Assembly (NCBI GenBank): GCA_041661005.1 | Contig: JBAZVG010000001.1 | Span: 671,515 to 735,514, forward strand | DNA length: 64,000 nt | Source: Minisyncoccota bacterium | GTDB lineage: Bacteria; Patescibacteriota; Minisyncoccia; Phycocordibacterales; UBA9973 | Reading direction: 5' to 3' | Part shown: positions 2,500 through 49,310 of the stretch, one piece after another | Position numbering within the stretch: the stretch's first letter is position 1 | How the letters are laid out: each line of letters begins with the position of its first letter | The notes under the pieces: model-generated | Told to the model about the DNA's origin: nothing | Databases searched by the model: none | Seen by the model: only the letters and a program-made list of their open reading frames with translations | Position numbers and translations under genes: made by a program

Positions 2500-2582
2500 G
2501 CCAGCAGAAGCATTTATTCAGGTCCTCGGTTCTCTGGGGCCCCGCGCCCCAGCCAGACCGTTCATAAATGCTTCTGCTGGCT
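2500..2582. repeat. Long hairpin element: 18-bp perfect inverted repeat (gccagcagaagcatttat / ataaatgcttctgctggc) around a 47-nt GC-rich core
   Basis: Perfect arms at 2500-2517 and 2565-2582. The core contains 'ggggcccc' and the family-1 motif. It lies between the uvrA stop (2492) and the likely uvrC start (2595); the ORF-caller ATG at 2568 sits inside the right arm. Confidence 0.8.
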
Positions 2583-2594
2583 TCACATAAATAT

Positions 2595-3968
2595 ATGAAA
2601 ATTGAATCTTTTAAAAAATCAAGATTGCCTGACAAACCAGGTGTTTATTTCTTTAAGAATAAGAAGAGTATTTTATATATCGGAAAGGCGACTTCCTTGC
2701 GGGATAGAGTAAAAAGTTATTTTGGCAAAGACCTGATTGAAACAAGGGGTCCAATACTTGTGGATATGGTTTTTAATGCGGCAAAAATTGACTGGCAAGT
2801 TACTGATAGTGTGCTTGAAGCCATAATCCTTGAAGCGAATCTAATAAAAAAATATCAGCCGAAATATAATACAAAAGAAAAATCTGACAAAAGTTTTAAT
2901 TATGTTTGCATTACAAGAGAACCTTTACCCAAGGTGGTTATCGTGCGGGGTAAAAACCTCGCCCCTTTCCATTTTTCGTCCCTGCGCCCTTCCCTTGAGT
3001 ACAAGGGCGGGACCCTCGGGAAGCTCAAAATAGAAAGGGGCTCGGTTTCATTTACTAGCATATTTGGTCCTTATACTAGCGGTTCTCAACTTCGTGAGGC
3101 GATGAAAATTATCCGCAGAATTTTCCCCTTTTTAGATGATAAAAGTAAAAATTATATGGAGTTTTATAGGCAGATAAATTTAGTGCCTGATTTGGATGAC
3201 CTGCCTCGACTAGGCAAGGCGGGTCGAAAAATGTATTTACAAAATATTAGAAATATAAAATTGTTTTTTGAGGGTAAAAAGAAAAAAGTTTTGCAAAATT
3301 TACAGAAAGAAATGAAAGAATATGCGCAAAAGCATGAATTCGAAAAAGCGGGTGAAGTGAAAAGACAAATTTTTGCTTTGCAACATATTAATGATATAGC
3401 TCTTTTAAGGAACGGAGAGCAGTATGTTCTCAAGGGAACCCTTGGTAGGAGTGGCGACGACGGACAGAGAAAATTTCCAGCAGGAAATTTTCGTGGTGAG
3501 TCTGAGAATATGCTGCTAGAAGTTTTTAAGATAGAAGCCTATGACATCGCCCACATGGGGGGCAAAAATATGGTGGGGGTGATGACTGTTGTTGAAGATG
3601 GGGAAGTAAACAAAAGCGAATACAAAAAATTCAAAATAAAAACTCAAATTAATGCGAATGACACAGGAGCGCTCAAAGAGGTTTTAGAGAGACGTTTGAG
3701 ACACACAGAATGGCCTTTTCCATCTTTAATCGTTGTCGATGGGGGAGTTGCCCAGTTAAATGTGGTAAAAACCGTCTTAAATAAAATAAGTGTAAATATT
3801 CCAGTGGTATCAGTGGTAAAGGATGAAAAACATAACCCAAAAAGTATCATGGGTAATGAAGAATTTATTTCTAAATATAAATCATCTATTTTACTTGCAA
3901 ACAATGAAGCGCACAGGTTTGCCATTGCTTACCATAAAAACATGCGCAATAAAAATTTCTTAAAATGA
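2595..3968 (+). CDS. uvrC: UvrC-like excinuclease subunit (GIY-YIG nuclease, short form lacking C-terminal HhH)
   Basis: N-terminus 'MKIESFKKSRLPDKPGVYFF...ILYIGKATSLRDRVKSYF' is a GIY-YIG motif. The start was refined to the ATG at 2595, outside the hairpin. It contains two GC-rich in-frame inserts (2941-3050 and 3439-3502). Confidence 0.85.
   Translation: MKIESFKKSRLPDKPGVYFFKNKKSILYIGKATSLRDRVKSYFGKDLIETRGPILVDMVFNAAKIDWQVTDSVLEAIILEANLIKKYQPKYNTKEKSDKSFNYVCITREPLPKVVIVRGKNLAPFHFSSLRPSLEYKGGTLGKLKIERGSVSFTSIFGPYTSGSQLREAMKIIRRIFPFLDDKSKNYMEFYRQINLVPDLDDLPRLGKAGRKMYLQNIRNIKLFFEGKKKKVLQNLQKEMKEYAQKHEFEKAGEVKRQIFALQHINDIALLRNGEQYVLKGTLGRSGDDGQRKFPAGNFRGESENMLLEVFKIEAYDIAHMGGKNMVGVMTVVEDGEVNKSEYKKFKIKTQINANDTGALKEVLERRLRHTEWPFPSLIVVDGGVAQLNVVKTVLNKISVNIPVVSVVKDEKHNPKSIMGNEEFISKYKSSILLANNEAHRFAIAYHKNMRNKNFLK
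3439..3502 (+). repeat. Family-2 64-nt element, in-frame within uvrC (copy 1)
   Basis: 62/64 nt identical to 47214-47277 in rnhA. It contains the hairpin 'gaaaattt-ccagcagg-aaattttc' and encodes 'LGRSGDDGQRKFPAGNFRGES'. Confidence 0.9.
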
Positions 3969-5972: not shown

Positions 5973-6935
5973 TTATTTCTGACAGTTTGGACAAAAGATA
6001 GTTGTACGAGTTTGAATGATCGTCTTTTCTAATGGTTTGCCACAGTTGGTGCACATTTTTCCAGCCTTTCCATATACTTTATGTTCTCTCGCATAATTGC
6101 CACGAGTCTCATCGAGCAGGCGATATGTGGCTACCGAAGAACCACCCAATTTTATTGCTCTTTTCATGATGCGGATTATTGCTTTATGTAATTTTTTTGC
6201 TTCTGTATTAGAGATAGAAGATGAACTTCGGTCTGGTCGGATTCTTGATTCAAACAGGCTTTCGTCTGCATAAATATTTCCTAAGCCTGTAACTATTTTC
6301 TGATCCATCAATACTGCTTTTATTTTACCTTTTTTGTTTTTCAGCGCGTCAAAAAAATATTTAGATGTAAACTTTTTTGATAGTGGTTCTAATCCATAAT
6401 TGCCGAAATGATTTTCCATCTCAAAGTCTTTAATGCTCGGATAATACAATAAGTAGCCAAACATACGAGTATCATTGTAATAAAGTGTTCCATGATTTAG
6501 TTTAAATGTTATATGAGTATGTTTATTTGGAAGTTGTTTTTCAGAAAGTTCTATCGGGTGCCCGCCTGCAACAGCTATGCTGTAAGCATTGCGGGCAGGC
6601 CCGCCAATTATTTTTTCTTCAGTTTTGCTCCGCCTTGCCGTAGCTTTGTGCGAAGGCAGGTATACGAATTGCCCAGACATTTTTAAATGTGCCAGAATAA
6701 TTTTCCCGTGGCTTAATTTAAAAATCAGATTTTTTGCCCGACGTTCGACACTAATAAATTTTTCTCCGGCAACCCCTTGGATAAATTTATTTTTCTGTTT
6801 TAAAGAAGCTATGCGCAGAGTTCCCTTGCCGGAAACGAGTTTTGGTTTTTTTATTTCTACTCGGCGAATTTTCTGACTTACAATAGTGCGGCTCAGTCCT
6901 TGACGTAGATTTTCCACTTCTGGTAATTCCGGCAT
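5973..6935 (-). CDS. mutM: Formamidopyrimidine-DNA glycosylase (Fpg/MutM) with ~25-aa in-frame insertion
   Basis: 'MPELPEVE' N-terminus and C-terminal zinc finger 'CTNCGKPL...CPNCQ'. The insertion 'ATARRSKTEEKIIGGPARNAYSIAVAGGHPIELSEKQ' precedes the conserved 'KHTHITF' and coincides with GC-rich DNA at 6555-6672. Confidence 0.9.
   Translation of the reverse strand: MPELPEVENLRQGLSRTIVSQKIRRVEIKKPKLVSGKGTLRIASLKQKNKFIQGVAGEKFISVERRAKNLIFKLSHGKIILAHLKMSGQFVYLPSHKATARRSKTEEKIIGGPARNAYSIAVAGGHPIELSEKQLPNKHTHITFKLNHGTLYYNDTRMFGYLLYYPSIKDFEMENHFGNYGLEPLSKKFTSKYFFDALKNKKGKIKAVLMDQKIVTGLGNIYADESLFESRIRPDRSSSSISNTEAKKLHKAIIRIMKRAIKLGGSSVATYRLLDETRGNYAREHKVYGKAGKMCTNCGKPLEKTIIQTRTTIFCPNCQK
6561..6599. 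repeat. Family-3 GC-rich palindromic element inside mutM CDS
   Basis: 'cccgcctgcaacagctatgctgtaagcattgcgggcagg' against copA 19317-19356 'ccccgcctgcatcagctgtgctgaaagcactgcgggcagg'. Nested hairpins cctgc/gcagg and acagc/gctgt. Confidence 0.85.
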
Positions 6936-7600: not shown

Positions 7601-7855
7601 ATGCCAATAACACAGTCAGCTAAAAAAGCAATCAGAGGTTCCTTGCGTAAAAAGGCTTTTAATGACAGCCGTAAGCGCGCGATGAAGGAGATAATCAAGA
7701 AAATCGAGAAAATTGCTAAGACAGACAAGAAAGAGGCGCTTAAAATGCTATCTTCGGCTTTTGCTATCATAGACAAAGCAGCTCAAAAGAACGTTATCAA
7801 GAAAAACAATGCTGCTCGCAAGAAGGCTCGTTTATCAAGATTAACCAAAAGCTAG
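7601..7855 (+). CDS. rpsT: 30S ribosomal protein S20
   Basis: 'MPITQSAKKAIRGSLRKKAFNDSRKRAMKE...'. The start was refined to the ATG at 7601, with a -10-like 'tattatat' upstream. Confidence 0.9.
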   Translation: MPITQSAKKAIRGSLRKKAFNDSRKRAMKEIIKKIEKIAKTDKKEALKMLSSAFAIIDKAAQKNVIKKNNAARKKARLSRLTKS

Positions 7856-7870
7856 ACATTTTATTTTTTA

Positions 7871-7934
7871 GGGTACAGATTTTTTGAAGCTTAAAAAATC
7901 CTGAAGTTCTCGGCTCGCCAGCCTCGAAACCCCC
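7871..7934 (+). repeat. Intergenic repeat family, copy A (two-hairpin element)
   Basis: 'gggtacagattttttgaagcttaaaaaatcctgaagttctcggctcgccagcctcgaaacccc' is about 95% identical to 45211-45276 and matches the reverse complement of 49226-49289. Confidence 0.9.
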
Positions 7935-7964
7935 TAAAAAACAAAATCTCCAGCTTTTTAAAAC

Positions 7965-16867: not shown

Positions 16868-17275
16868 TCAGCTATGCCTCACATACGAAAGAGAGGGGCT
16901 ATTTATAAAAAGAGACAACCATTTAATAATTTTATTATCGTAAGTACTTAAATTTTTGTTATATAGGTAATATTTCCACCTGTAAAAATACTTGGTTTGT
17001 TTTAAAAGCTTTTGTTTGTTGTAAAAATACAAAATTATTCCCAGTATTAAGAGCGAGGAAAATATTAAAGTTGGGAAAATTGCATTTGAGAACTGACGCC
17101 AGTTATTTATATGTGCAAAACTATTTTCACACAATGAAAAACCACCTTGTGCATAAGGACAATTAGGCATAGGCATTTCGGTGACATGATTTAACTGAAA
17201 CAATCCAAATACACCGATGCTTAGATAGGCGAGGAAGATGAAGCCTATAAATAATCTTGTGTGCTTTAAGTTCAT
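16868..17275 (-). CDS. Small 2-TM membrane protein with Met/Cys/His-rich loop ([22 protein letters not shown]), translationally coupled to copA
   Basis: The start overlaps the copA stop (ATGA at 17272-17275). The loop motif is suggestive of Cu(I) binding. Confidence 0.45.
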
Positions 17276-19578
17276 AATTTTTTACTTTTAATTCTTAATG
17301 AATTCGACACTACGGATACTGAAGACATAGCCATCGCGAATCCAGCAAAGACGGGGGAGAGGAGCCAGCCAAAGATCGGATAAAACAGTCCGGCTGCCAG
17401 TGGGATACCTACTATATTGTAAATGAATGCCCAGAAAAGATTTTGCTTTATTCCTCGCATGGTTATTTTTGAAAGCCTGATTGCTTTAACAAGCTTGGAG
17501 ATGTCTCCTCCAAGCAGGGTAATGCCAGCTGATTCTATTGCCACGTCTGTGCCAGTGCCCATGGCGATGCCCACATCAGCTTGCGCTAGCGCTGGGGCGT
17601 CGTTGACGCCATCGCCAGCCATCGCCACAATGTGCCCCTCTTTTTGCAGCTTTTCTATCTCTGATAATTTATCTGCGGGTAATACGTGCGCTATGACATC
17701 ATCAATGCCGACGAGCGACGCCATGTATTTTGCGGCCTTTTCGTCGTCTCCGGTAAGCATGATTACTTTGATGCCGAGCTTGTGGAGATCTTTCACGGCC
17801 TGCATTGACTCAGTTTTTATTTCATCTGCCACCATCACAAATCCCAAAACTTTTTCTGCTGTAGCAAGAATCACAGGAGTTTTTCCCTGCATTGTGTATT
17901 GTTCTAGTTTTGAATTATCGAAATCTAATTTCAGATCTTGTATCAGTTTTGCATTTCCAACAAAATATTCAACACTACCGACTGAGCCTTTTATCCCCCT
18001 GCCTTGCAAATTTTCAAAATTTTGCACCTCTAAAAGTTTTATATTTTTTCCTGCCCCGTAGGAAGTACTCTTTCCTTCGGGGTCTTGTGCATAACTCACA
18101 ACAGCGTGAGCGATAGGATGTTCAGATTTTTTTTCAAGTGATGCAAGGATTGACAAGAATTCTACATCTTTTAAAATTGAAAAATTTTTTATATCAACCA
18201 GTGTTGGTTTCCCGATAGTTATTGTTCCAGTTTTATCGACGATGACAGTGTCAACTTTGTGAAGTTTTTCTAATGTTGCGGCGTCTTTTATCAAGATTCC
18301 TTCTTTGGCGCCTTTCCCAACTCCAACAATAATGGCAGTGGGGGTGGCGAGTCCGAGCGCGCATGGACAAGCAATAACCAAGATACCGACAAAAGAAATT
18401 AGACCGAAAGAAAGCGCTTGTGAGAAACCGAGATATTGTGTGCCGATGAGGAGCCATGTGCCAAGAGTGACAAAAGAAATTATAAGCACAATAGGCACGA
18501 AGATGCTTGAAATCTTATCAGCTAGGGCTTGAATCGGTGCCTTACTTCCCTGTGCTTCTTCAACCATTTTTATAATATGCGCAAGCAATGTCTCTTTCCC
18601 GACTTTTGTCGCCTTGAATGTGAATGATCCAGTCGTGTTTATCGTCGCAGCTATTACGTCGTCTCCGACTTTTTTTTGAGCGGGCATCGGTTCGCCAGTC
18701 ACCATAGATTCGTCTATGAAAGAAGTTCCTTCTGTGATTATTCCATCAACTGGAATCTTGGTTCCAGGTTTTACAATTATCAGATCGCCATGCACAACTT
18801 GTTCGACAGGTATCTCAATTTCTTTACCACTGCGAATTACCAAAGCGGTTTTTGCTTGCAGATTTAAAAGTTTCTCAATAGCATCACCCGTTTTTATTTT
18901 TGATCGAGCTTCCAAATATTTTCCCAGCGCGATAAATGTAATGACGATGATAGTCACATCATAATAAGTGCTGTTTGTATTTATAAAAGGTTTGAGTATA
19001 TCCTCAAATGCCGAGACTGCAAAGCTGTATAGATATGCTGTCAGTGTGCCTATGCCGATGAGGGTATCCATATTTGCTTTTCCATGACGCAGAAAGCGAT
19101 AAAAACCCAAAAGATATGGTTTGCCGACAACAAAAAGTATGTATGTGGCGAATAGGGGAAGGAGGTGATGGAAAAATTCTTCAATCGTGAAACCCATCTC
19201 TGGAACTATGTTGTAGCCGGATAAAATTTCCCAACCCATTACGAATATGCTGATTACAGCTAGTGGAATAGCCGAAATTACTTTTGTTCGCATAGCTTTA
19301 ATCTCTGCCAGTTTTTCCCCGCCTGCATCAGCTGTGCTGAAAGCACTGCGGGCAGGTTTTTTAGATTGGTCAATGACGAGAGAATAACCCAATGGCTCTA
19401 TTTTTTGAGATAATTTTTCTGGGTTTGTTTTTGTTTCGTCGAAATTAATTTTTACAGACTCATTGCCATAATTTGCTTCCGCCATGTTAACCCCGTCGAT
19501 TTTTTTGAAAGTTCTCTCAATAATGCCTGCGCAAGAAGCACAATGCATGCCTTTTATTTTATATGTTTCTTTTTTCAT
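17272..19578 (-). CDS. copA: Copper-translocating P1B-type ATPase
   Basis: N-terminal HMA 'GMHCASCAG', 'CPC' in '[11 protein letters not shown]', 'DKTGTIT', '[10 protein letters not shown]'. Confidence 0.95.
19317..19356. repeat. Family-3 GC-rich palindromic element inside copA CDS
   Basis: See 6561-6599. It encodes '[15 protein letters not shown]' in the linker after the HMA domain. Confidence 0.85.
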
Positions 19579-33837: not shown

Positions 33838-36471
33838 ATGAAAAAAATTATTTTGGTTGCGTTTGTTTTGTGGTTGGGTATTTCAGCGACAAGCGCTGAG
33901 GCAGGAACAAGTTCGGTGGTTGCTACTGTAAATATCTATAATGCAAGAATTGAATCTCAGAACGAAAATACTTTTAATATTTCTTTCGATCTTTCAAACC
34001 GTGAAGGTGTTCAGTCTGGAATCAAATATTCAACCGTTCTCACAAAACTTCCGAGTAACGAGATTGTTGATGAGCAGGTATATGACGAGACACTCTCATT
34101 AAGTGAAAACGAAACTGTTTCTAAAAATATTACATATACTCCCTCTACATCTTTATCTTCGGGTGTTTATACGCTTTGGATTCAAAGTAAAAACGATCGA
34201 GGTTTCTCATTTGCAATGGCCGATCTTGGGAATGTCACATTGACTTCGTCAAAATCACCGAAAGTTGAAATTCTGTCGGATACTTGTTACTTGACCATAG
34301 ACAACAAAAAACCTGTTGAAAAATATTCCCTTATTCAAGGGTTGAGTATTAATTATGCGGATGTTCTCGTTGCCACATGCAAGGTTTCCAGCACCTTTCC
34401 TGCAACGACTCATTATGTCCCAACATTTGAAACTTATTTCAGATCAACCTTTGGCGATAAAGCAAACCAGACGAGTGATCCGACTAACCTTCTTGCAATA
34501 CCAAAAGGAGTCTCTTCAATCTCCGTAGTTATTCCAAAAGCAACACAACCTCAATCCTATGAGACTAAATTTTATTTAACCGATTCTAACGGTTTGAATA
34601 AATCTAACGCGGTCAACATCAATTACGTTCTCAAAGGAATTAGTGGAACTATACAGAATGCTGTTTTTGACAAGGATGCATACATAAAGGGGGATACCGC
34701 GCGTTTGCAAATTTTTGCTACTTTTCCCGAAGGGAATCAAAAACTAGATGTTGTGATAACAGATCAGAAAGGCGATGAGTGCGGTTCATTTACGAAACAA
34801 GATCTAAAAAACGATGAACCAGTTGTTGATGTTTCTGTTGAAATAGAAAAGGATTGTGAAAATCCAATTGCGCAAGTAACTCTTTCCGGCATATTGGATG
34901 GAAACTCAGGTTTTCAAACTCTTGATTCAAGAGAATTTCAGACGTCATTGGATTCTGAGTCCGCGACTGTGGCCAAACCTGGAGTGATTATTTTAATTGT
35001 TGCTGGAATTCTGTTGATACTCGCGGTTTTATTTTTCTCGTATAGAAATAAAAGAATAATCAAGATCTCTGTTTTGTTTTTATTTTTTATTGGGATATCG
35101 ATTTTTGGAGATGTTAGGGAAGCCAAAGCTGACACAGTGACATATACTCCTGATCCGGATGTGGGTACTTTCATATTTACACTCAGCACAAATAAATCCA
35201 TATATGATGTAGGAGAAAGGGTCAGAGTTACTGGATCGGTGACTTTTTTGTTGGCGCCGAGTCGATCTTCATTTGAAGGTATAGCTGTCTCTCCATATAT
35301 AACGGCGACAATTGACAATGTGCCACCTGCCAGAAAATTTTGGCAAGATCCCTACGATATACATTTCATAAGAACGTTTGGTTCAGCATCTTTGACATTT
35401 AATAGAGCTTTATCAATTGGGAATCATCATGCTGTCTCTAATAATTTTGGCAGTGTTTTTTTTGACTCTTCACTATCGTATGGAACTATCTCTGTGCCTT
35501 TTGAAGTGAGCGCGCTTGTTCCTCCCGTTGTCACTATTCAAGCAACTCCAGCCACTGTGGAACTTCCCGCAAATGATTCTACATTACTAGAATGGTCTGC
35601 GACGAATGATCCGACAGAATGTACTGCGTCTGGTGATTGGAGTGGAGATAAAGATGTTTCAGGTTCACAGACTATTTCTGGTCTTACGGTTGGAGAATAT
35701 ACATATACTTTGGTTTGTTCAAATGCAAGCGGGTCAAGTGCTCCGAGTAGCGCGAATGTGACGGTAATAAATCCTTTACTAGACGATATGTCTGGTGTCT
35801 TGCTTGCTAATCCAGTTCACTGCGATGTTCTCGAAGGGCAAAGAAGTTGCTACACAGATCTTGCTTGGAATGTAACTAATCCTGAAATTGTGGGTGGATC
35901 TACCGTGACTAGTAATACTGATAACGATGGAAATGTTTCACATAATTTTAGTATTATTCCGCCTGTAAGCTCGGGCACCACAGACTCTGGGACAAAATCA
36001 AATGTCGCTGTTTCGCACACGGGCAGAACATTTTTCCTATACAATAACGGTCACGAATTTCCCCCAATTACGGTAACTGCAAGTTGTGCTCCGGGGGCTG
36101 ATTGGAATGCTGGTACTAAAACCTGCAAGGTTGGTGGCAATGGCAATGGTAACGGTAACTGTACCGACGGTATAAGAAATGGGGACGAGACAGGTGTTGA
36201 TATTGGTGGCCGTTGTGGTGGTGGTATTGGTAACGGTAACTGTACCGACGGTATAAGAAATGGGGACGAGACAGGTGTTGATATTGGTGGCCGTTGTGGT
36301 GGTGGTATTGATGCCAGGGGTGTCTGTTCTGATGATCATTCTCTTCCTTGTTCTTCTGGTAGGCCTAGTGAAATTTTAAGTAGTCCGAGTCTTTGGACGT
36401 GGACTTGTTCAGGGACAGACACATCTGAATTGTGCACAGAACCTAAAAGTCCTATCTTTATAGAAGATTAA
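33838..36471 (+). CDS. Large (877 aa) surface protein with signal peptide, internal TM pair, Ig-like regions, perfect 81-bp tandem duplication and C-terminal 'KSPIFIED'
   Basis: Signal peptide 'MKKIILVAFVLWLGISATSAEA'. Internal hydrophobic pair 'VIILIVAGILLILAVLFF...ISVLFLFFIGISIFG'. Two copies of the repeat 'GNGNCTDGIRNGDETGVDIGGRCGGGI'. Confidence 0.65.
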   Translation: MKKIILVAFVLWLGISATSAEAGTSSVVATVNIYNARIESQNENTFNISFDLSNREGVQSGIKYSTVLTKLPSNEIVDEQVYDETLSLSENETVSKNITYTPSTSLSSGVYTLWIQSKNDRGFSFAMADLGNVTLTSSKSPKVEILSDTCYLTIDNKKPVEKYSLIQGLSINYADVLVATCKVSSTFPATTHYVPTFETYFRSTFGDKANQTSDPTNLLAIPKGVSSISVVIPKATQPQSYETKFYLTDSNGLNKSNAVNINYVLKGISGTIQNAVFDKDAYIKGDTARLQIFATFPEGNQKLDVVITDQKGDECGSFTKQDLKNDEPVVDVSVEIEKDCENPIAQVTLSGILDGNSGFQTLDSREFQTSLDSESATVAKPGVIILIVAGILLILAVLFFSYRNKRIIKISVLFLFFIGISIFGDVREAKADTVTYTPDPDVGTFIFTLSTNKSIYDVGERVRVTGSVTFLLAPSRSSFEGIAVSPYITATIDNVPPARKFWQDPYDIHFIRTFGSASLTFNRALSIGNHHAVSNNFGSVFFDSSLSYGTISVPFEVSALVPPVVTIQATPATVELPANDSTLLEWSATNDPTECTASGDWSGDKDVSGSQTISGLTVGEYTYTLVCSNASGSSAPSSANVTVINPLLDDMSGVLLANPVHCDVLEGQRSCYTDLAWNVTNPEIVGGSTVTSNTDNDGNVSHNFSIIPPVSSGTTDSGTKSNVAVSHTGRTFFLYNNGHEFPPITVTASCAPGADWNAGTKTCKVGGNGNGNGNCTDGIRNGDETGVDIGGRCGGGIGNGNCTDGIRNGDETGVDIGGRCGGGIDARGVCSDDHSLPCSSGRPSEILSSPSLWTWTCSGTDTSELCTEPKSPIFIED
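36148..36309 (+). repeat. Perfect tandem duplication, 2 x 81 bp, in-frame within surface-protein gene
   Basis: Units 36148-36228 and 36229-36309 are identical base for base. Confidence 0.9.
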
Positions 36472-45186: not shown

Positions 45187-45210
45187 GGAAAGTTTTTTAA
45201 ATATAATTTT

Positions 45211-45276
45211 TTCCGGTACGGATTTTTTGAAGCTTAAAAAATCCTGAAATTCTCGGCTCGCCAGCCTCGAAACCCC
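45211..45276 (+). repeat. Intergenic repeat family, copy B
   Basis: 'ccggtacggattttttgaagcttaaaaaatcctgaaattctcggctcgccagcctcgaaacccc'. Confidence 0.9.
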
Positions 45277-45389
45277 TTCAAAAATCATATTTCAAAAAAC
45301 TTTATCTATTATATGCTAAAACAATTTCTAATGGAAATTGTTCGCACGAACATTCGCAGGGCGAATGTTTTAGTGCTAAAATTCCATTT

Positions 45390-47090
45390 ATGCAAAAGTA
45401 TGGTGAATTACTGCGGACACTTTTAGAAAAAAGGGGAATTATTGATGAGGCGCAAGCCGATATTTTTTTAAATCCAGATTACAAGCGAGATCTACACGAT
45501 CCTTTTCTGATGCGGGATATGGAAAAAGCTTGTGTTCGTTTATTTGAAGCCATAGAAAACAAACAAAAAATAGTTATTTACGCAGATTATGATTGTGATG
45601 GTATTCCAGGTGCGGTGATTTTAAATGACCTTTTTATTCTTTTAGGATATAAAAATTACGAGGTTTATATACCACAAAGAAATTCTGAGGGATATGGTCT
45701 TAACCTAGAAGCAATAAAAAAAATTGCTAAATCTGGAACCAAACTTTTAATAACCATTGATCTTGGCATCACAGCGGTGGCGGAAGTAGCGCAACTCACG
45801 GTCGATGGCATTGATGTAATAATTACTGATCACCACCTGCCTCGCGTTGACGCGAGTCAAGGCGGGTTTACCTCTTTAATTTTACCTCGCGCTTATGCAA
45901 TTTTAAATCCAAAAGTGGATGACCCACGCCAAGGCGGGGCAAGTTATCCAGAGAAAATGTTGTGCGGAGCGGGGGTTGTCTTCAAATTTGCTCAAGGTTT
46001 TCTAAAAAAATATGGCGAGTATTTCAAAGTTCGAGAGGGCGCTGAAAAATGGATGCTTGACATGGCAGGTCTCGCCACACTTTCAGACATGGTTCCACTA
46101 ACGGGAGAAAATAGAGCTATTGCGTGTTTCGGAATGAAAGTATTGAGAAAAACTCCACGTCCGGGTTTACAGAAACTTCTTGCGAAAATGAATATAGACC
46201 AACGACATCTTTCAGAAGACGATGTGGGTTTTATGGTGACACCACGGTTGAATGCCGCATCTCGAATGGACAATCCGATGCGGGCGTTTGAACTTCTTGC
46301 CACAGAAGACGAGAAAGAGGGGGGCATGCTAGCTGATCATTTGTCAAAAATAAATGATGAACGAAAGACTATTGTCACAGGAATCATGCGTGATGTAAAT
46401 AAAAAGCTTGAAGCGTATGAACACAAAGAAGTGATAGTCATAGGCAATCCTAAATGGCGCATAGGTGTTTTGGGTCTTGTCGCGGGTAAAATTTCTGATC
46501 AGTATCAAAAACCAGTTTTTGTCTGGGGAAAAGATGAAAATGATTGCATCAAAGGTTCTTGTCGTAGCGATGGTTCAGTGTCAGTAGTAGAACTCATGAC
46601 TGCAACTCGTGAATCTTTCATAGATTTTGGTGGGCATGAGCTTGCTGGGGGATTTACGATTCACAATGAGAAGATTCATTTTCTTGAAGAGATATTGTCG
46701 GCGACCTTTAATAAAGTAAAAAAAATTAAAAAAGAAAATGAAGTAGCTTATGATACTACATCTAGTTTGGGTGTAGTTAATATGAAAAATTGGCGTGAAA
46801 TAGAAAAACTTGCGCCCTTTGGATTTGGCAACCCCAAACCAGTTTTTCTCTTTGAATGTGTCAAAATAGACAAAATAAAAAAATTTGGTAAAAATGGTTC
46901 CGGTGAGCATCTGGAAATTATTTTTTCCGACCGGACAGGTAAAGCCAAGGCAATTTCTTTTTTCTCTGGTGTCGATTCTTTTCAAAAGGCTTTAGTCGAA
47001 GGGCTCTCTGTAAACTTACTTGCTACTTTCGACTTGTCTAGATTTAGAGGTAAAGAAGAGTTAAGATTAAGAATTGAGGATATAATTTAA
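45390..47090 (+). CDS. recJ: Single-stranded-DNA-specific exonuclease RecJ
   Basis: DHH motifs ('VIYADYDCDGI', 'ITDHH'), DHHA1 and a C-terminal OB domain. Small GC-rich palindromic inserts lie near the 'ITDHH' motif. Confidence 0.9.
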   Translation: MQKYGELLRTLLEKRGIIDEAQADIFLNPDYKRDLHDPFLMRDMEKACVRLFEAIENKQKIVIYADYDCDGIPGAVILNDLFILLGYKNYEVYIPQRNSEGYGLNLEAIKKIAKSGTKLLITIDLGITAVAEVAQLTVDGIDVIITDHHLPRVDASQGGFTSLILPRAYAILNPKVDDPRQGGASYPEKMLCGAGVVFKFAQGFLKKYGEYFKVREGAEKWMLDMAGLATLSDMVPLTGENRAIACFGMKVLRKTPRPGLQKLLAKMNIDQRHLSEDDVGFMVTPRLNAASRMDNPMRAFELLATEDEKEGGMLADHLSKINDERKTIVTGIMRDVNKKLEAYEHKEVIVIGNPKWRIGVLGLVAGKISDQYQKPVFVWGKDENDCIKGSCRSDGSVSVVELMTATRESFIDFGGHELAGGFTIHNEKIHFLEEILSATFNKVKKIKKENEVAYDTTSSLGVVNMKNWREIEKLAPFGFGNPKPVFLFECVKIDKIKKFGKNGSGEHLEIIFSDRTGKAKAISFFSGVDSFQKALVEGLSVNLLATFDLSRFRGKEELRLRIEDII

Positions 47091-47098
47091 GAATATAT

Positions 47099-47716
47099 AT
47101 GAAACAAAATAAAATAGTTATTTATACAGATGGGGCGGCAAAGGGGAATCCAGGAAGGGCAGGTTGGGGCGCGGTTTTTATAATTTACGGAGGTCAGAAT
47201 ACTCACGAGCGAGCCCTTGGTAGGAGTGGCGACGACGGACAGAGAAAATTTTCAGCAGAAAATTTTCGTGGTGAGTCCGTGGGTATTCTGACCGAAGTAA
47301 TTGAAATTGGCGGAGGAGTAGAACATGCGACAAATAATCAGATGGAATTAACTGCTCCGATAGAGGCGCTGAAATATTTTAAGCAAATAATAAATACACA
47401 GGCAACGCCTGTGTATGATATCGAAATTATTTCTGATTCTAAGTATGTGATCTTGGGAATTACGGAGTGGATTTTTAATTGGCAGAAAAATAATTGGCGC
47501 AATGCTGCCAAAAAGCCAGTTGTAAATCGTGAACTCTGGGAGGAACTTTATGAACTTACCCAAGAATTGAAACCCAAATGGACATATGTCAAAGGACACA
47601 ATGAGGATAAATACAACGACCGTGCGGATCTTATAGCTACAAGTTTTGCGGAAGGCGAGCCGGTGGAGCTTAATCCCGGTAGTAGAGCAAAGCTCACTAC
47701 GGGACAAGGAAAATAA
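47099..47716 (+). CDS. rnhA: Ribonuclease HI with ~25-aa in-frame repeat-encoded insertion
   Basis: 'IYTDGAAKGNPGRAGWG...TNNQMEL...' catalytic motifs. The insertion 'LGRSGDDGQRKFSAENFRGESVGIL' sits between beta strands relative to E. coli RNase HI. Confidence 0.85.
   Translation: MKQNKIVIYTDGAAKGNPGRAGWGAVFIIYGGQNTHERALGRSGDDGQRKFSAENFRGESVGILTEVIEIGGGVEHATNNQMELTAPIEALKYFKQIINTQATPVYDIEIISDSKYVILGITEWIFNWQKNNWRNAAKKPVVNRELWEELYELTQELKPKWTYVKGHNEDKYNDRADLIATSFAEGEPVELNPGSRAKLTTGQGK
47214..47277 (+). repeat. Family-2 64-nt element, in-frame within rnhA (copy 2)
   Basis: 62/64 identical to 3439-3502, in the same orientation and the same codon phase. Confidence 0.9.
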
Positions 47717-49216: not shown

Positions 49217-49225
49217 TGTTTTTAA

Positions 49226-49289
49226 GGGGTTTTGAGCGCGACGGCGCGAAAATTTCAGGATTTTTTAAGCTTCAAAAAATCCGTACCGG
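49226..49289 (-). repeat. Intergenic repeat family, copy C (inverted orientation)
   Basis: 'ggggttttgagcgcgacggcgcgaaaatttcaggattttttaagcttcaaaaaatccgtaccgg' is the reverse complement of copies A/B. The GC hairpin ggct-cgcc-agcc is replaced by cgcg-acgg-cgcg, a compensatory change. Confidence 0.85.
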
Positions 49290-49310
49290 CAAAAATATTA
49301 CTCTTGATTT

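What the first reader, a model, noticed from the sequence alone, without database searches (positions are those of the whole stretch)
6561..6599. Second family of in-frame GC-rich palindromic inserts shared by mutM and copA
'cccgcctgcaacagctatgctgtaagcattgcgggcagg' in mutM and 'ccccgcctgcatcagctgtgctgaaagcactgcgggcagg' at 19317-19356 in copA are about 90% identical, with nested stems (cctgc/gcagg, acagc/gctgt). Both are read in frame on the minus strand, giving 'PARNAYSIAVAGG' and '[13 protein letters not shown]'. The mutM copy lies inside an insertion of about 25 aa relative to canonical Fpg, just before the conserved KHxH region.
Basis: seen in the sequence. Interest (0 to 1): 0.7.

Follow-up and report, generated by a model that had tools for sequence, protein, structure and literature searches.

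The report
Tiny translated hairpin element in CPR genes
The two look-alike 39-base stretches in the DNA-repair gene fpg (mutM) and the copper-pump gene copA are copies of a GC-rich hairpin element that is scattered through the genomes of ultra-small Patescibacteria, is mostly read through as 13 extra amino acids, and has not turned up in the literature searched.

Summary
Window 6561-6599 (fpg/mutM) and 19318-19356 (copA) are 35/39 identical and read in frame on the minus strand.

They belong to a sharply bounded 39-nt family, consensus CCTGCCCGCAATGCTTTCAGCATAGCTGATGCAGGCGGG.

- **No insertion signature:** the flanks are unrelated, with no target-site duplication and no target motif.
- **Translated:** about two thirds of copies lie in ORFs, and 70 of 86 use one sense frame (PARNAFSIADAGG-type peptide). 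Copies in other frames carry exactly the variants that remove the stop codons.
- **Hairpin under selection:** compensatory changes support the stem, for example 17:29 as T:A, A:T, C:G and G:C.
- **Gain and loss:** none of 119 close CopA orthologues has the insert. In Fpg it is scattered over the tree, always at GGNGGN|CAY, and 37-39/39 identical while neighbouring third codon positions are 42-55% identical.

Best reading: a non-autonomous, translatable mobile hairpin, functionally like Rickettsia palindromic elements but far smaller and found across the phylum.

The mobilising enzyme is unknown. The only recurrent gene partner is a small GIY-YIG nuclease gene at tRNA loci. RAYT-like genes have other palindromes of their own.

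The parts
6561..6599 (-). 39-nt hairpin element, A17:T29 (Y/V) subtype, inside fpg. On the coding strand it reads CCTGCCCGCAATGCTTACAGCATAGCTGTTGCAGGCGGG, giving PARNAYSIAVAGG (Fpg residues 112-124).
   Evidence: The same site is filled in L001, L002, L122, L124 and L143 with 37-39/39 identity, and is empty in about 70 other orthologues.
19318..19356 (-). 39-nt hairpin element, G11:C23 / T17:A29 subtype, inside copA in the linker between the HMA domain and the membrane domain. It encodes [13 protein letters not shown].
   Evidence: It is absent from all 119 closest CopA orthologues, which read ...SKK|EKLAE....
5973..6935 (-). Host gene fpg/mutM (320 aa; the baseline orthologue length is 299 aa).
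17272..19578 (-). Host gene copA-like heavy-metal P-type ATPase (768 aa).
6629..6660 (-). Related but distinct hairpin insert in fpg ('site A', LPSHKATARRS). It shares the termini CCTGCC...GGCGG and is read in frame +1 of the element.
   Evidence: It is patchy among Fpg orthologues and more diverged between them than the 39-nt element.
3200..3223 (+). Short member of the same terminus superfamily (CCTGCCTCGACTAGGCAAGGCGGG) inside the uvrC-like ORF 2568-3968.
45836..45866 (+). Member of the same terminus superfamily (CCTGCCTCGCGTTGACGCGAGTCAAGGCGGG) inside the recJ-like ORF 45390-47090, just after the DHH motif.

Best explanation
Both sites are copies of a non-autonomous mobile DNA element. It is a 39-bp GC-rich imperfect palindrome with fixed termini (5' CCTGCCCGC ... 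GCAGGCGGG 3') and is dispersed through Patescibacteria (CPR) genomes.

It lands at essentially arbitrary sequences without duplicating the target. It is exactly 13 codons long. Its commonest form is stop-free in only one sense frame, which encodes a peptide that starts with Pro, ends with Gly-Gly and is rich in Ala, Ser and Gly. Insertions in that frame into loops, linkers or termini are therefore tolerated and translated, and selection removes the rest.

**Shown:**
- the family exists and has sharp boundaries;
- there is no target-site duplication and no target motif;
- filled and empty sites coexist among orthologues;
- frame usage follows stop-codon avoidance;
- the hairpin shows base-pair covariation.

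**Inferred:**
- the element moves as a folded hairpin recognised through its conserved termini by an enzyme acting in trans;
- the leading candidate is a small stand-alone GIY-YIG (UPF0213-like) nuclease. Its genes sit directly upstream of tRNA genes and almost always have a hairpin of this superfamily immediately upstream.

The chemistry of insertion is not known.
For: Position 1, which lay outside the search pattern, is C in 124/124 unique copies. Position 39, also outside it, is G in 122/124. Every flank position carries at most 0.28 bit of information.

**No insertion signature.** There is no target-site duplication for k = 1-6 beyond shuffled controls. Flanks show no excess complementarity.

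**Translation.** Of 86 copies with a spanning ORF of at least 100 aa, 70 are in sense frame 0. The 3 copies in frame +1 all carry CAC in place of CAT, which removes the TAG. The 2 copies in frame +2 carry GTT in place of GAT, which removes the TGA. A stricter classification gives 63 sense and 6 antisense. Insertion positions are spread along the host proteins.

**Hairpin.** Across 41 distinct sequences, 96.9% of cells form standard pairs, against 28-49% when the partners are slid. Five pairs show double changes, and 0 of 500 shuffles reach the observed values. Pair 17:29 occurs as UA 16, AU 7, CG 5 and GC 1. Variants found only by their termini carry fully compensated inner stems: L069 has GCGAC/GTCGT, L110 has CTAGC/GCTAG and L205 has ACGGC/GCCGT.

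**Gain.** The copA insert is unique among 120 close orthologues.

**Superfamily.** Elements of 36, 33 and 30 nt, and other lengths down to 24 nt, share the termini but have different hairpin cores.

**GIY-YIG link.** In the element-selected tiles, 6 of 11 GIY-YIG ORFs have a copy 11-26 nt upstream.
- all 8 lie 3-60 nt upstream of an intact tRNA gene;
- 7 of 8 have a superfamily hairpin within about 60 nt upstream;
- 2 of those hairpins are the exact 39-nt family.

Three of these loci share the FtsH-GIY-tRNA-Ile arrangement. Their hairpins differ in family, orientation and position, which implies repeated insertion next to the same gene.
Against: No enzyme has been tied to the element by anything stronger than adjacency. 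This GIY-YIG family is absent from the 64-kb window, and I could not check the rest of the genome.

GIY-YIG nucleases are known from homing and repair, not from transposition to arbitrary sites. The hairpin could instead be a target, a regulatory element or an mRNA-stabilising element of the GIY-YIG cassette.

A purely selfish element should leave decayed copies, and almost none are seen. Mismatches to the consensus run from 0 to 5, then there is a gap apart from a single copy at 9. Six Fpg copies at one site stay 37-39/39 identical, and all are one subtype, while adjacent third codon positions are 42-55% identical. That requires nucleotide-level purifying selection, fast turnover with re-insertion, or spread by recombination.

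The sense bias of 63 to 6 is not explained by stop codons alone, because two antisense frames are also open.

Most copies were found with a pattern that fixed 27 bases, so conservation at those positions is partly ascertainment.
Confidence: 0.65

Rival explanations
1. The hairpin is, or has become, a host-useful cis element acting as DNA or RNA. It could be a binding site for a conserved CPR protein or an mRNA structure, kept intact by purifying selection at each site. On this reading mobility only explains its origin.
For: Orthologous Fpg copies are 37-39/39 identical while flanking third codon positions are 42-55% identical, and all are the same A17:T29 subtype. There is no tail of decayed copies. 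Loop and bulge bases are conserved as well as the stems. The sequence is identical across several CPR classes.
Against: Sites are arbitrary: unrelated genes, any position within the protein, and intergenic DNA. Most orthologues of both host genes do well without it. No positional logic relative to operons or gene ends was seen. There is no Rfam match. This reading does not exclude the best explanation.
Confidence: 0.25
2. It is a REP-type element mobilised by a RAYT, that is an IS200/IS605-type Y1 (HUH) transposase acting on single-stranded hairpins.
For: It has REP-like size and an imperfect palindrome with a 4-nt unpaired 5' lead (CCTG) before the stem. There is no target-site duplication and the boundaries are seamless. 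Y1_Tnp (PF01797) genes occur in four of the sampled loci.
Against: Three of the four Y1 genes are flanked by their own palindromes, which differ from this element: TTAGCAAGAAC..GTTCTTGCTAA, GATCGAGG..CCTCGATC and CCTAGGGGACGGACCCCTAGG. None of the four is flanked by the 39-nt element. The element has no GTAG or CGTC tag, which defines the two large REP superfamilies according to the abstract of PMC3733652. There is no conserved 4-5 nt target next to the element, which IS200/IS605 chemistry requires. About two thirds of copies are intragenic.
Confidence: 0.1
3. The 13-residue peptide is a functional protein module selected at the amino-acid level, and the DNA similarity follows from that.
For: There is strong preference for one sense frame. 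The peptide is recurrent, with a Pro start and a Gly-Gly end.
Against: Synonymous sites are as conserved as non-synonymous ones. The amino-acid pairs F/D, Y/V, S/G and C/A follow Watson-Crick pairing of positions 17 and 29, not protein logic. Copies also occur in other frames, on the antisense strand, in intergenic DNA and inside tRNA fragments. The host proteins are unrelated. The AlphaFold2 model has pLDDT below 50 across Fpg residues 97-139, which include the insert.
Confidence: 0.04
4. The insert is removed after transcription as a mini-intron, or it is an assembly artefact, so the proteins are not really altered.
For: CPR genomes are known for intervening sequences in rRNA genes (from memory, not tested here). 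The element is a stable hairpin.
Against: Frame usage tracks stop-codon-free variants exactly, which only makes sense if the element is translated. The length is always a multiple of three in the main families. Copies were recovered from dozens of independent projects and assemblers. There is no ribozyme or Rfam match.
Confidence: 0.03

Closest known systems
Rickettsia palindromic elements (RPEs)
   Same: Both are palindromic repeats that insert in frame into unrelated protein-coding genes and are translated as extra peptide segments compatible with protein function (review PMC10969869). Both occur in small, AT-rich, reduced genomes.
   Different: RPEs are about 100-150 bp, form about ten families, and are confined to Rickettsia and its relatives. 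This element is 39 bp (13 codons), has no detectable target-site duplication, and is nearly identical in sequence across several classes of a whole phylum. It also has a candidate GIY-YIG gene partner. No sequence relationship to RPEs was tested or is expected.
REP elements and their RAYT transposases (REPtrons)
   Same: Both are 20-40 bp GC-rich imperfect palindromes present in many copies, with no target-site duplication. Both are recognised as hairpins and are presumably mobilised in trans by a dedicated enzyme whose gene is itself flanked by the repeats.
   Different: REPs are extragenic and carry a GTAG or CGTC tag (PMC3733652). This element is mostly intragenic, is translated and lacks those tags. 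The RAYT-like genes sampled have other cognate palindromes.
Mobile GC-rich hairpin clusters of AT-rich organelle genomes (yeast mitochondrial GC clusters, Neurospora PstI palindromes flanking tRNA genes, fungal double-hairpin elements, sponge and placozoan hairpin repeats)
   Same: Both are short GC-rich palindromes dispersed in an AT-rich compact genome, sometimes inside coding sequence, often next to tRNA genes, with an unknown mobilisation mechanism. This comparison rests on my own knowledge; only abstracts of related papers appeared.
   Different: They belong to a different domain of life and are organelle-restricted. They are not systematically of 3n length or frame-biased, and no such cross-lineage sequence identity has been reported for them.
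Free-standing GIY-YIG homing endonuclease cassettes / UPF0213 (YhbQ, BH0048) small GIY-YIG proteins
   Same: The linked ORF is a bare GIY-YIG domain of 78-93 aa (Pfam PF01541). Its best solved relative is UPF0213 protein BH0048, PDB 1zg2, E = 0.0015. There is a weak match to the group I intron endonuclease model. It sits at a fixed kind of target, a tRNA gene, flanked by a duplicated 5' part of that tRNA, as a site-specific mobile cassette would.
   Different: No intron is present. Nothing known about these proteins predicts scattering of a 39-bp hairpin to arbitrary sites. The link here is adjacency only.

Membership tests
Rickettsia palindromic elements | Palindromic repeat inserted in frame in protein-coding genes and translated | tested here: met
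   70 of 86 ORF-borne copies are in one open sense frame, and stop-free variants are used in the other frames.
Rickettsia palindromic elements | Length of about 100-150 bp, with sequence membership in one of the RPE families of Rickettsia | tested here: not met
   The element is 39 bp with sharp ends. The hosts are Patescibacteria. Sequence comparison with RPE consensus sequences was not run.
REP / RAYT | 20-40 bp imperfect palindrome in many copies | tested here: met
REP / RAYT | Conserved GTAG or CGTC tetranucleotide at one end | tested here: not met
   Neither strand of the consensus contains GTAG or CGTC, and the 5' lead is CCTG. The criterion comes from the abstract of PMC3733652.
REP / RAYT | Extragenic location | tested here: not met
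   86 of 127 copies lie in ORFs of at least 100 aa.
REP / RAYT | Cognate Y1 transposase gene flanked by the repeats | tested here: not met
   Four Y1_Tnp genes were found. None is flanked by this element, and three (L082, L033, L035) are flanked by other palindromes of their own. Only about 0.94 Mb was sampled.
Classical MITE (DDE-transposase derived) | Terminal inverted repeats plus target-site duplication | tested here: not met
   The termini are imperfectly inverted (CCTGCCCGC versus CCCGCCTGC). No target-site duplication of 1-6 bp exceeds shuffled controls.
IS200/IS605-derived hairpin elements (PATEs) | Insertion 3' of a fixed tetra- or pentanucleotide target | tested here: not met
   The five positions upstream carry at most 0.28 bit each.
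CRISPR repeat | Regularly spaced array with unique spacers | tested here: not met
   Copies are solitary, or directly abutting as in L057, and are embedded in ORFs.
Known structured RNA (Rfam) | Match to a curated covariance model | tested here: not met
   Nothing overlapped an element copy at gathering score in 18 loci (only tRNA and 5S rRNA matches elsewhere in them). Nothing credible appeared at E up to 10 around the fpg copy.
GIY-YIG-associated mobile unit (proposed here, not an established family) | Hairpin immediately upstream of a small GIY-YIG ORF that abuts a tRNA gene | tested here: met
   7 of 8 independently chosen GIY-YIG loci, and 6 of 11 in element-selected tiles. The two window copies themselves are solo copies with no such gene nearby.
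GIY-YIG-associated mobile unit (proposed here, not an established family) | Nuclease binds or cuts the hairpin and mobilises it | not testable with these tools
   This needs biochemistry or genetics.

The most novel reading that the evidence does not exclude
The hairpins are the non-autonomous passengers, or the break-repair products, of an unrecognised GIY-YIG-nuclease-based mobile system that resides at tRNA genes. The nuclease recognises the conserved CC(T/C)GCC...GGCGGG hairpin and pastes 3n-length, stop-free hairpins into arbitrary sites. If so, it continuously adds 8-13-residue loops to proteins across the whole Patescibacteria phylum. That would be a new mode of DNA transposition and a phylum-wide source of protein indels.
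Probability: 0.2. Interest if true: 0.9.

Novelty: new variant of a known kind. Interest (0 to 1): 0.78.

Why it matters
Patescibacteria have some of the smallest and most gene-dense bacterial genomes, yet they tolerate a repeat that survives by being translatable. If the reading holds, four things follow.

- **Protein length variation.** Many unexplained short indels and length differences between CPR orthologues, in DNA-repair enzymes and transporters among others, would have a single mechanical cause.
- **Annotation and markers.** The element gives a sequence tag useful for annotation and for binning quality control. Several contigs carrying it sit in MAGs labelled Methylobacter, Chlorobiaceae, Bacteroidales or Gammaproteobacteria. 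It also gives a population-level marker of insertion and excision.
- **A testable enzyme.** The element poses a concrete mechanistic question: which enzyme moves a 39-bp hairpin without a target-site duplication? There is now a specific candidate, a 78-aa GIY-YIG protein next to tRNA genes.
- **An evolutionary puzzle.** The near-perfect conservation across classes, and between orthologous sites whose neighbouring synonymous positions are largely randomised, asks whether this is constraint from the mobilising machinery, rapid turnover or domestication.

Tried and rejected
1. **RAYT/Y1 transposase as the partner.** A tblastn search with the L002 Y1_Tnp found four genes. None is flanked by the element, three are flanked by other palindromes of their own, and there is none in the window.
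2. **Insertion into functional tRNAs.** The 'tRNA-like flanks' in L013, L019 and L046 are truncated 5' tRNA fragments beside intact tRNAs. ARAGORN finds no tRNA at the insertion site even after the element is removed in silico.
3. **Known RNA families.** Rfam gave nothing.
4. **Phage carriage.** A termini-only pattern in IMG/VR gave three hits, all in contigs with 57-68% GC and unrelated cores, which I read as chance.
5. **Target-site duplication, target motif and hairpin-shaped targets.** All were negative. Weak subtype-specific flank signals (GC/AT subtype followed by TC in 5 of 5; AC/TA subtype followed by GAA in 6 of 7) rest on too few copies to interpret.
6. **Replication-strand bias as the cause of orientation bias.** Intergenic copies show 20 versus 15 relative to local GC skew, so this is not supported. 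Skew over 8 kb is confounded by the coding strand.
7. **Truncated half-copies, as a retro-insertion signature.** None was found. One nested insertion (L077) and one partial tandem duplication in Fpg (L143) turned up instead.
8. **Literature.** Seven full-text searches, including the sequence and peptide strings, found no description of the element.
9. **Structure of the insert.** The AlphaFold2 model of Fpg was only moderate (mean pLDDT 68.8). The insert region scored below 50. This is compatible with a flexible loop but is not strong evidence.
Full report
**Observation**

The 39 bases at window 6561-6599 and those at 19318-19356 are 35/39 identical. A pattern with N at the four differing positions finds only these two sites in the window. 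It found nothing in 100 dinucleotide-preserving shuffles. A search allowing up to 11 mismatches finds no third copy in the window.

The window averages about 39% G+C, and the element is 64% G+C. Both copies lie in minus-strand ORFs:
- a formamidopyrimidine-DNA glycosylase at 5973-6935, with Fapy_DNA_glyco and H2TH domains;
- a heavy-metal P-type ATPase at 17272-19578, with HMA, E1-E2 and hydrolase domains.

On the coding strand they read CCTGCCCGCAATGCTTACAGCATAGCTGTTGCAGGCGGG (PARNAYSIAVAGG) and CCTGCCCGCAGTGCTTTCAGCACAGCTGATGCAGGCGGG ([13 protein letters not shown]). Either strand folds into a bulged hairpin of -19 to -30 kcal/mol, z -2.2 to -3.5. The organism is a Nomurabacteria/Paceibacterota-type member of the Patescibacteria, and the contig is 813 kb.

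**Are they insertions?**

Solved Fpg structures align on both sides of Fpg residues 91-136. Among the closest orthologues the commonest length is 299 aa. The window protein's 21 extra residues are two independent inserts: LPSHKATARRS-type at 'site A' and GPARNAYSIAVAG at 'site B'. Each is present or absent independently of the other.

I collected 83 Fpg loci with DNA (the window, L001, L002 and 80 metagenome loci); 76 of them could be read across the insertion region, and 68 distinct proteins went into the tree. Site B is filled in six: the window, L001, L002, L122, L124 and L143. It is always filled at the same bond, GGNGGN|CAY. The six are scattered over a neighbour-joining tree built from the remaining 299 columns. 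The window's sister, L128, has neither insert.

For CopA the picture is simpler. None of the 119 closest orthologues has the insert. They read ...NQSKK|EKLAE... where the window reads ...[23 protein letters not shown].... So copA shows a lineage-specific gain, and fpg shows a shared but patchy one.

**A phylum-wide family**

I scanned one genome per GTDB species with a pattern that fixes 27 of the 39 bases. The records are almost all Patescibacteria:
- Nomura-, Giovannoni-, Buchanan- and Moraniibacteria, and Minisyncoccia;
- Saccharibacteria;
- Gottesman- and Collierbacteria;
- a complete Berkelbacteria genome;
- WS2.

A few contigs sit in MAGs labelled Methylobacter, Chlorobiaceae, Bacteroidales, Sedimentisphaerales, Woesearchaeota or Gammaproteobacteria. 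Several of these are short, and I suspect mis-binning or mislabelling but did not test it (one search gives their G+C).

The unit has sharp ends. Position 1, outside the pattern, is C in 124/124 unique copies. Position 39, also outside it, is G in 122/124. No flank position carries more than 0.28 bit. There is no target-site duplication and no excess of complementary flanks. Single assemblies hold at least 4-10 copies even in this truncated sample.

**The element is translated**

Of 127 copies, 86 lie in an ORF of at least 100 aa, and 70 of those use sense frame 0. The consensus has TAG in frame +1 and TGA in frame +2.
- The three copies in frame +1 all carry CAC instead of CAT.
- The two copies in frame +2 carry GTT instead of GAT.
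- The one copy in antisense frame 2 is the A17 variant that opens that frame.

This bookkeeping only makes sense if ribosomes read through the element, so RNA-level excision is unlikely.

A stricter call gives 63 sense against 6 antisense. Two antisense frames are stop-free, so the sense bias needs more than stop avoidance. Local GC skew does not explain it, since intergenic copies split 20 to 15. The sense peptide has Pro first and Gly-Gly last and is Ala/Ser/Gly-rich. I infer that it is simply the least disruptive reading.

Insertion points are spread along the host proteins. In an AlphaFold2 model of the window Fpg, residues 97-139 have pLDDT below 50. That is compatible with a floppy loop, but the model is only moderate overall.

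**Selection acts on the nucleic acid, not the peptide**

On 41 distinct 39-mers, 96.9% of cells in the structure 5-9/35-39, 12-14/31-33, 17-21/25-29 form standard pairs. Slid controls give 28-49%. Five pairs have double changes, and no shuffle of 500 reaches the observed values. Pair 17:29 occurs as T:A, A:T, C:G and G:C, which is what produces the peptide pairs F/D, Y/V, S/G and C/A.

Copies found only through their termini, and so not biased by my pattern, have fully compensated inner stems:
- GCGAC/GTCGT in L069;
- CTAGC/GCTAG in four copies in L110;
- ACGGC/GCCGT in L205.

Positions 11 and 23 also co-vary (A:T in 25 sequences, G:C in 9). This could be an alternative small hairpin or merely subfamily linkage. 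The caveat is that stem positions fixed by the search pattern cannot inform.

**A superfamily with common termini**

Searching for CCTGCC...GGCGGG alone reveals relatives with other cores and lengths:
- a 36-nt family (CCTGCCCGCAATGCTACGCATAGCGTTGCAGGCGGG, PARNATHSVAGG, again in frame 0);
- forms of 33, 30 and 24-32 nt.

Three of them are in the window: fpg site A (6629-6660), the uvrC-like gene (3200-3223) and the recJ-like gene (45836-45866). All three are read in frame +1 as 'LP...'. Conserved termini combined with free hairpin cores are what one expects if an enzyme recognises the ends and the fold.

**The conservation puzzle**

The six Fpg copies differ from the window copy at 0-2 of 39 bases. 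The next 240 coding bases are 66-74% identical, and only 42-55% at third positions. The host's own GG codons just upstream vary synonymously (GGC/GGT, GGG/GGC), whereas the element's GGCGGG does not.

All six are the A17:T29 subtype, which makes up about 15% of copies overall. Other copies in the same genomes are other subtypes. The Fpg copies therefore share ancestry or a subtype-specific site preference. They are then either kept intact by nucleotide-level selection or turned over quickly.

Consistent with this, there is almost no tail of decayed copies in 1.2 Mb. Mismatches run 0-5, then a single copy at 9, which is the compensated variant. I cannot decide between constraint, rapid gain and loss, and short-patch recombination. 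In fpg the flanking GGNGGN/GGCGGG repeat around a hairpin would favour precise deletion.

**Who moves it?**

RAYT-like Y1 genes exist in four sampled loci. None is flanked by this element, and three are flanked by their own, different palindromes. The element lacks the GTAG/CGTC tag of the REP superfamilies and a fixed target. No copy was found in 2.9 million viral contigs apart from three chance hits in GC-rich DNA.

The one recurrent neighbour is a bare GIY-YIG ORF of 78-93 aa. It is PF01541, its best solved relative is UPF0213 protein BH0048, and it matches the group I intron endonuclease model weakly.

In the element-selected tiles, 6 of 11 such ORFs have a 39-nt copy 11-26 nt upstream. 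Four of these are antisense and two are sense relative to the ORF.

To remove selection bias I fetched eight homologues chosen only for long contigs.
- All eight lie 3-60 nt upstream of an intact tRNA gene.
- Seven have a GC-rich hairpin of the CC(T/C)GCC...GGCGGG kind within about 60 nt upstream.
- That hairpin usually splits a duplicated 5' part of the same tRNA at positions about 9, 13 or 19 of the D arm.
- Two of the seven are the exact 39-nt family, and one resembles the 36-nt family.

Three lineages share the arrangement FtsH - GIY-YIG - tRNA-Ile. Their hairpins differ in family, orientation and position, and two sit inside the FtsH C-terminal codons. Hairpins have therefore landed next to this gene repeatedly. 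That is what a cis-preferring enzyme, or breaks made near its own recognition site, would produce.

It is still only adjacency. The hairpin could instead be the nuclease's target, or a stabiliser or insulator of the cassette. One nested case, a 36-nt hairpin inside the loop of a 39-nt copy in L077, shows that the elements insert into one another.

**Comparison with what is known**

Functionally the closest analogue is the Rickettsia palindromic element, which also inserts in frame, is translated and is tolerated (PMC10969869). RPEs are three to four times longer and confined to one genus group.

REPs match in size and in being hairpins but fail on tag, location and cognate transposase. Classical MITEs fail on the target-site duplication. 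GC-rich hairpin clusters of AT-rich mitochondrial genomes are a further analogue, a comparison I make from memory.

Seven full-text searches, including the nucleotide and peptide strings, found no description of this element. The searched library lacks most subscription journals.

**Verdict**

I file it as a new variant of a known kind, a translated selfish palindrome, with three unusual properties:
- its 13-codon size;
- phylum-wide near-identity without decayed copies;
- a specific, testable candidate partner gene.

Noticed in passing
window 6629-6660 (minus strand, fpg site A): A second, independent in-frame hairpin insert (LPSHKATARRS). It has the same CCTGCC...GGCGG termini and is patchy among Fpg orthologues. 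Its copies are much more diverged (2-6 of 31 mismatches) than the 39-nt element, and it was found only in fpg among 1.2 Mb sampled.
   Followed up: partly
window 3200-3223 (+, uvrC-like ORF) and 45836-45866 (+, recJ-like ORF): Further short GC-rich hairpins with CCTGCCT...AAGGCGGG termini inside DNA-repair genes, read as 'LPR...' in frame +1.
   Followed up: partly
window 7858-7950, 45201-45293 and, inverted, 49219-49297: An intergenic repeat of about 93 nt present in three copies (81-87% identity). It has its own terminal inverted repeat (7847-7873 / 7932-7958) and looks like a separate MITE-like family (D3, I1, I2, I21).
   Followed up: no
window 3403-3532 and 47178-47307: Two copies of a 130-nt repeat at 79% identity. 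One is inside the uvrC-like ORF and one is just downstream of the recJ-like ORF (D1).
   Followed up: no
window 36134-36295: A tandem duplication of an 81-nt (27-codon) unit at 94% identity (D4).
   Followed up: no
Fpg orthologues P0002, P0015, P0082 (alignment A1, columns about 226-232): A third patchy 7-residue insert after KNKK (GRGKGGA / GHVRGRV / GHAKERA). It is absent from the window protein.
   Followed up: no
L082:3700-4700, L033:1650-2500, L035:4900-5650: RAYT-like Y1_Tnp genes, each flanked on both sides by its own perfect palindrome. The arrangement is REPtron-like in CPR genomes and unrelated to the 39-nt element.
   Followed up: partly
L033:3900-6821: An array of small toxin-antitoxin-like gene pairs. 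They are separated by a repeated unit of about 130 nt that combines the local RAYT-type palindrome with a 39-nt element copy. The layout resembles a cassette array.
   Followed up: no
L077:3899-3973: A nested insertion: a 36-nt hairpin of the same superfamily sits inside the apical loop of a 39-nt copy.
   Followed up: no
L205-L221 and L013, L046, L102, L071, L063: Small GIY-YIG ORFs sit directly upstream of an intact tRNA gene. In most loci (not L208, L209, L212/L213) they are preceded by a duplicated 5' fragment of a tRNA, usually that same one. This looks like an undescribed tRNA-targeting cassette in its own right.
   Followed up: partly
L012, L016, L041, L063, L064, L067, L094 and the 'uncultured Gammaproteobacteria/Pseudomonadales' TPA assemblies: Contigs carrying the element occur in MAGs labelled as non-CPR taxa. 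Many are short or have CPR-like G+C, so mis-binning or mislabelling is likely and the element may be useful as a contamination flag.
   Followed up: no
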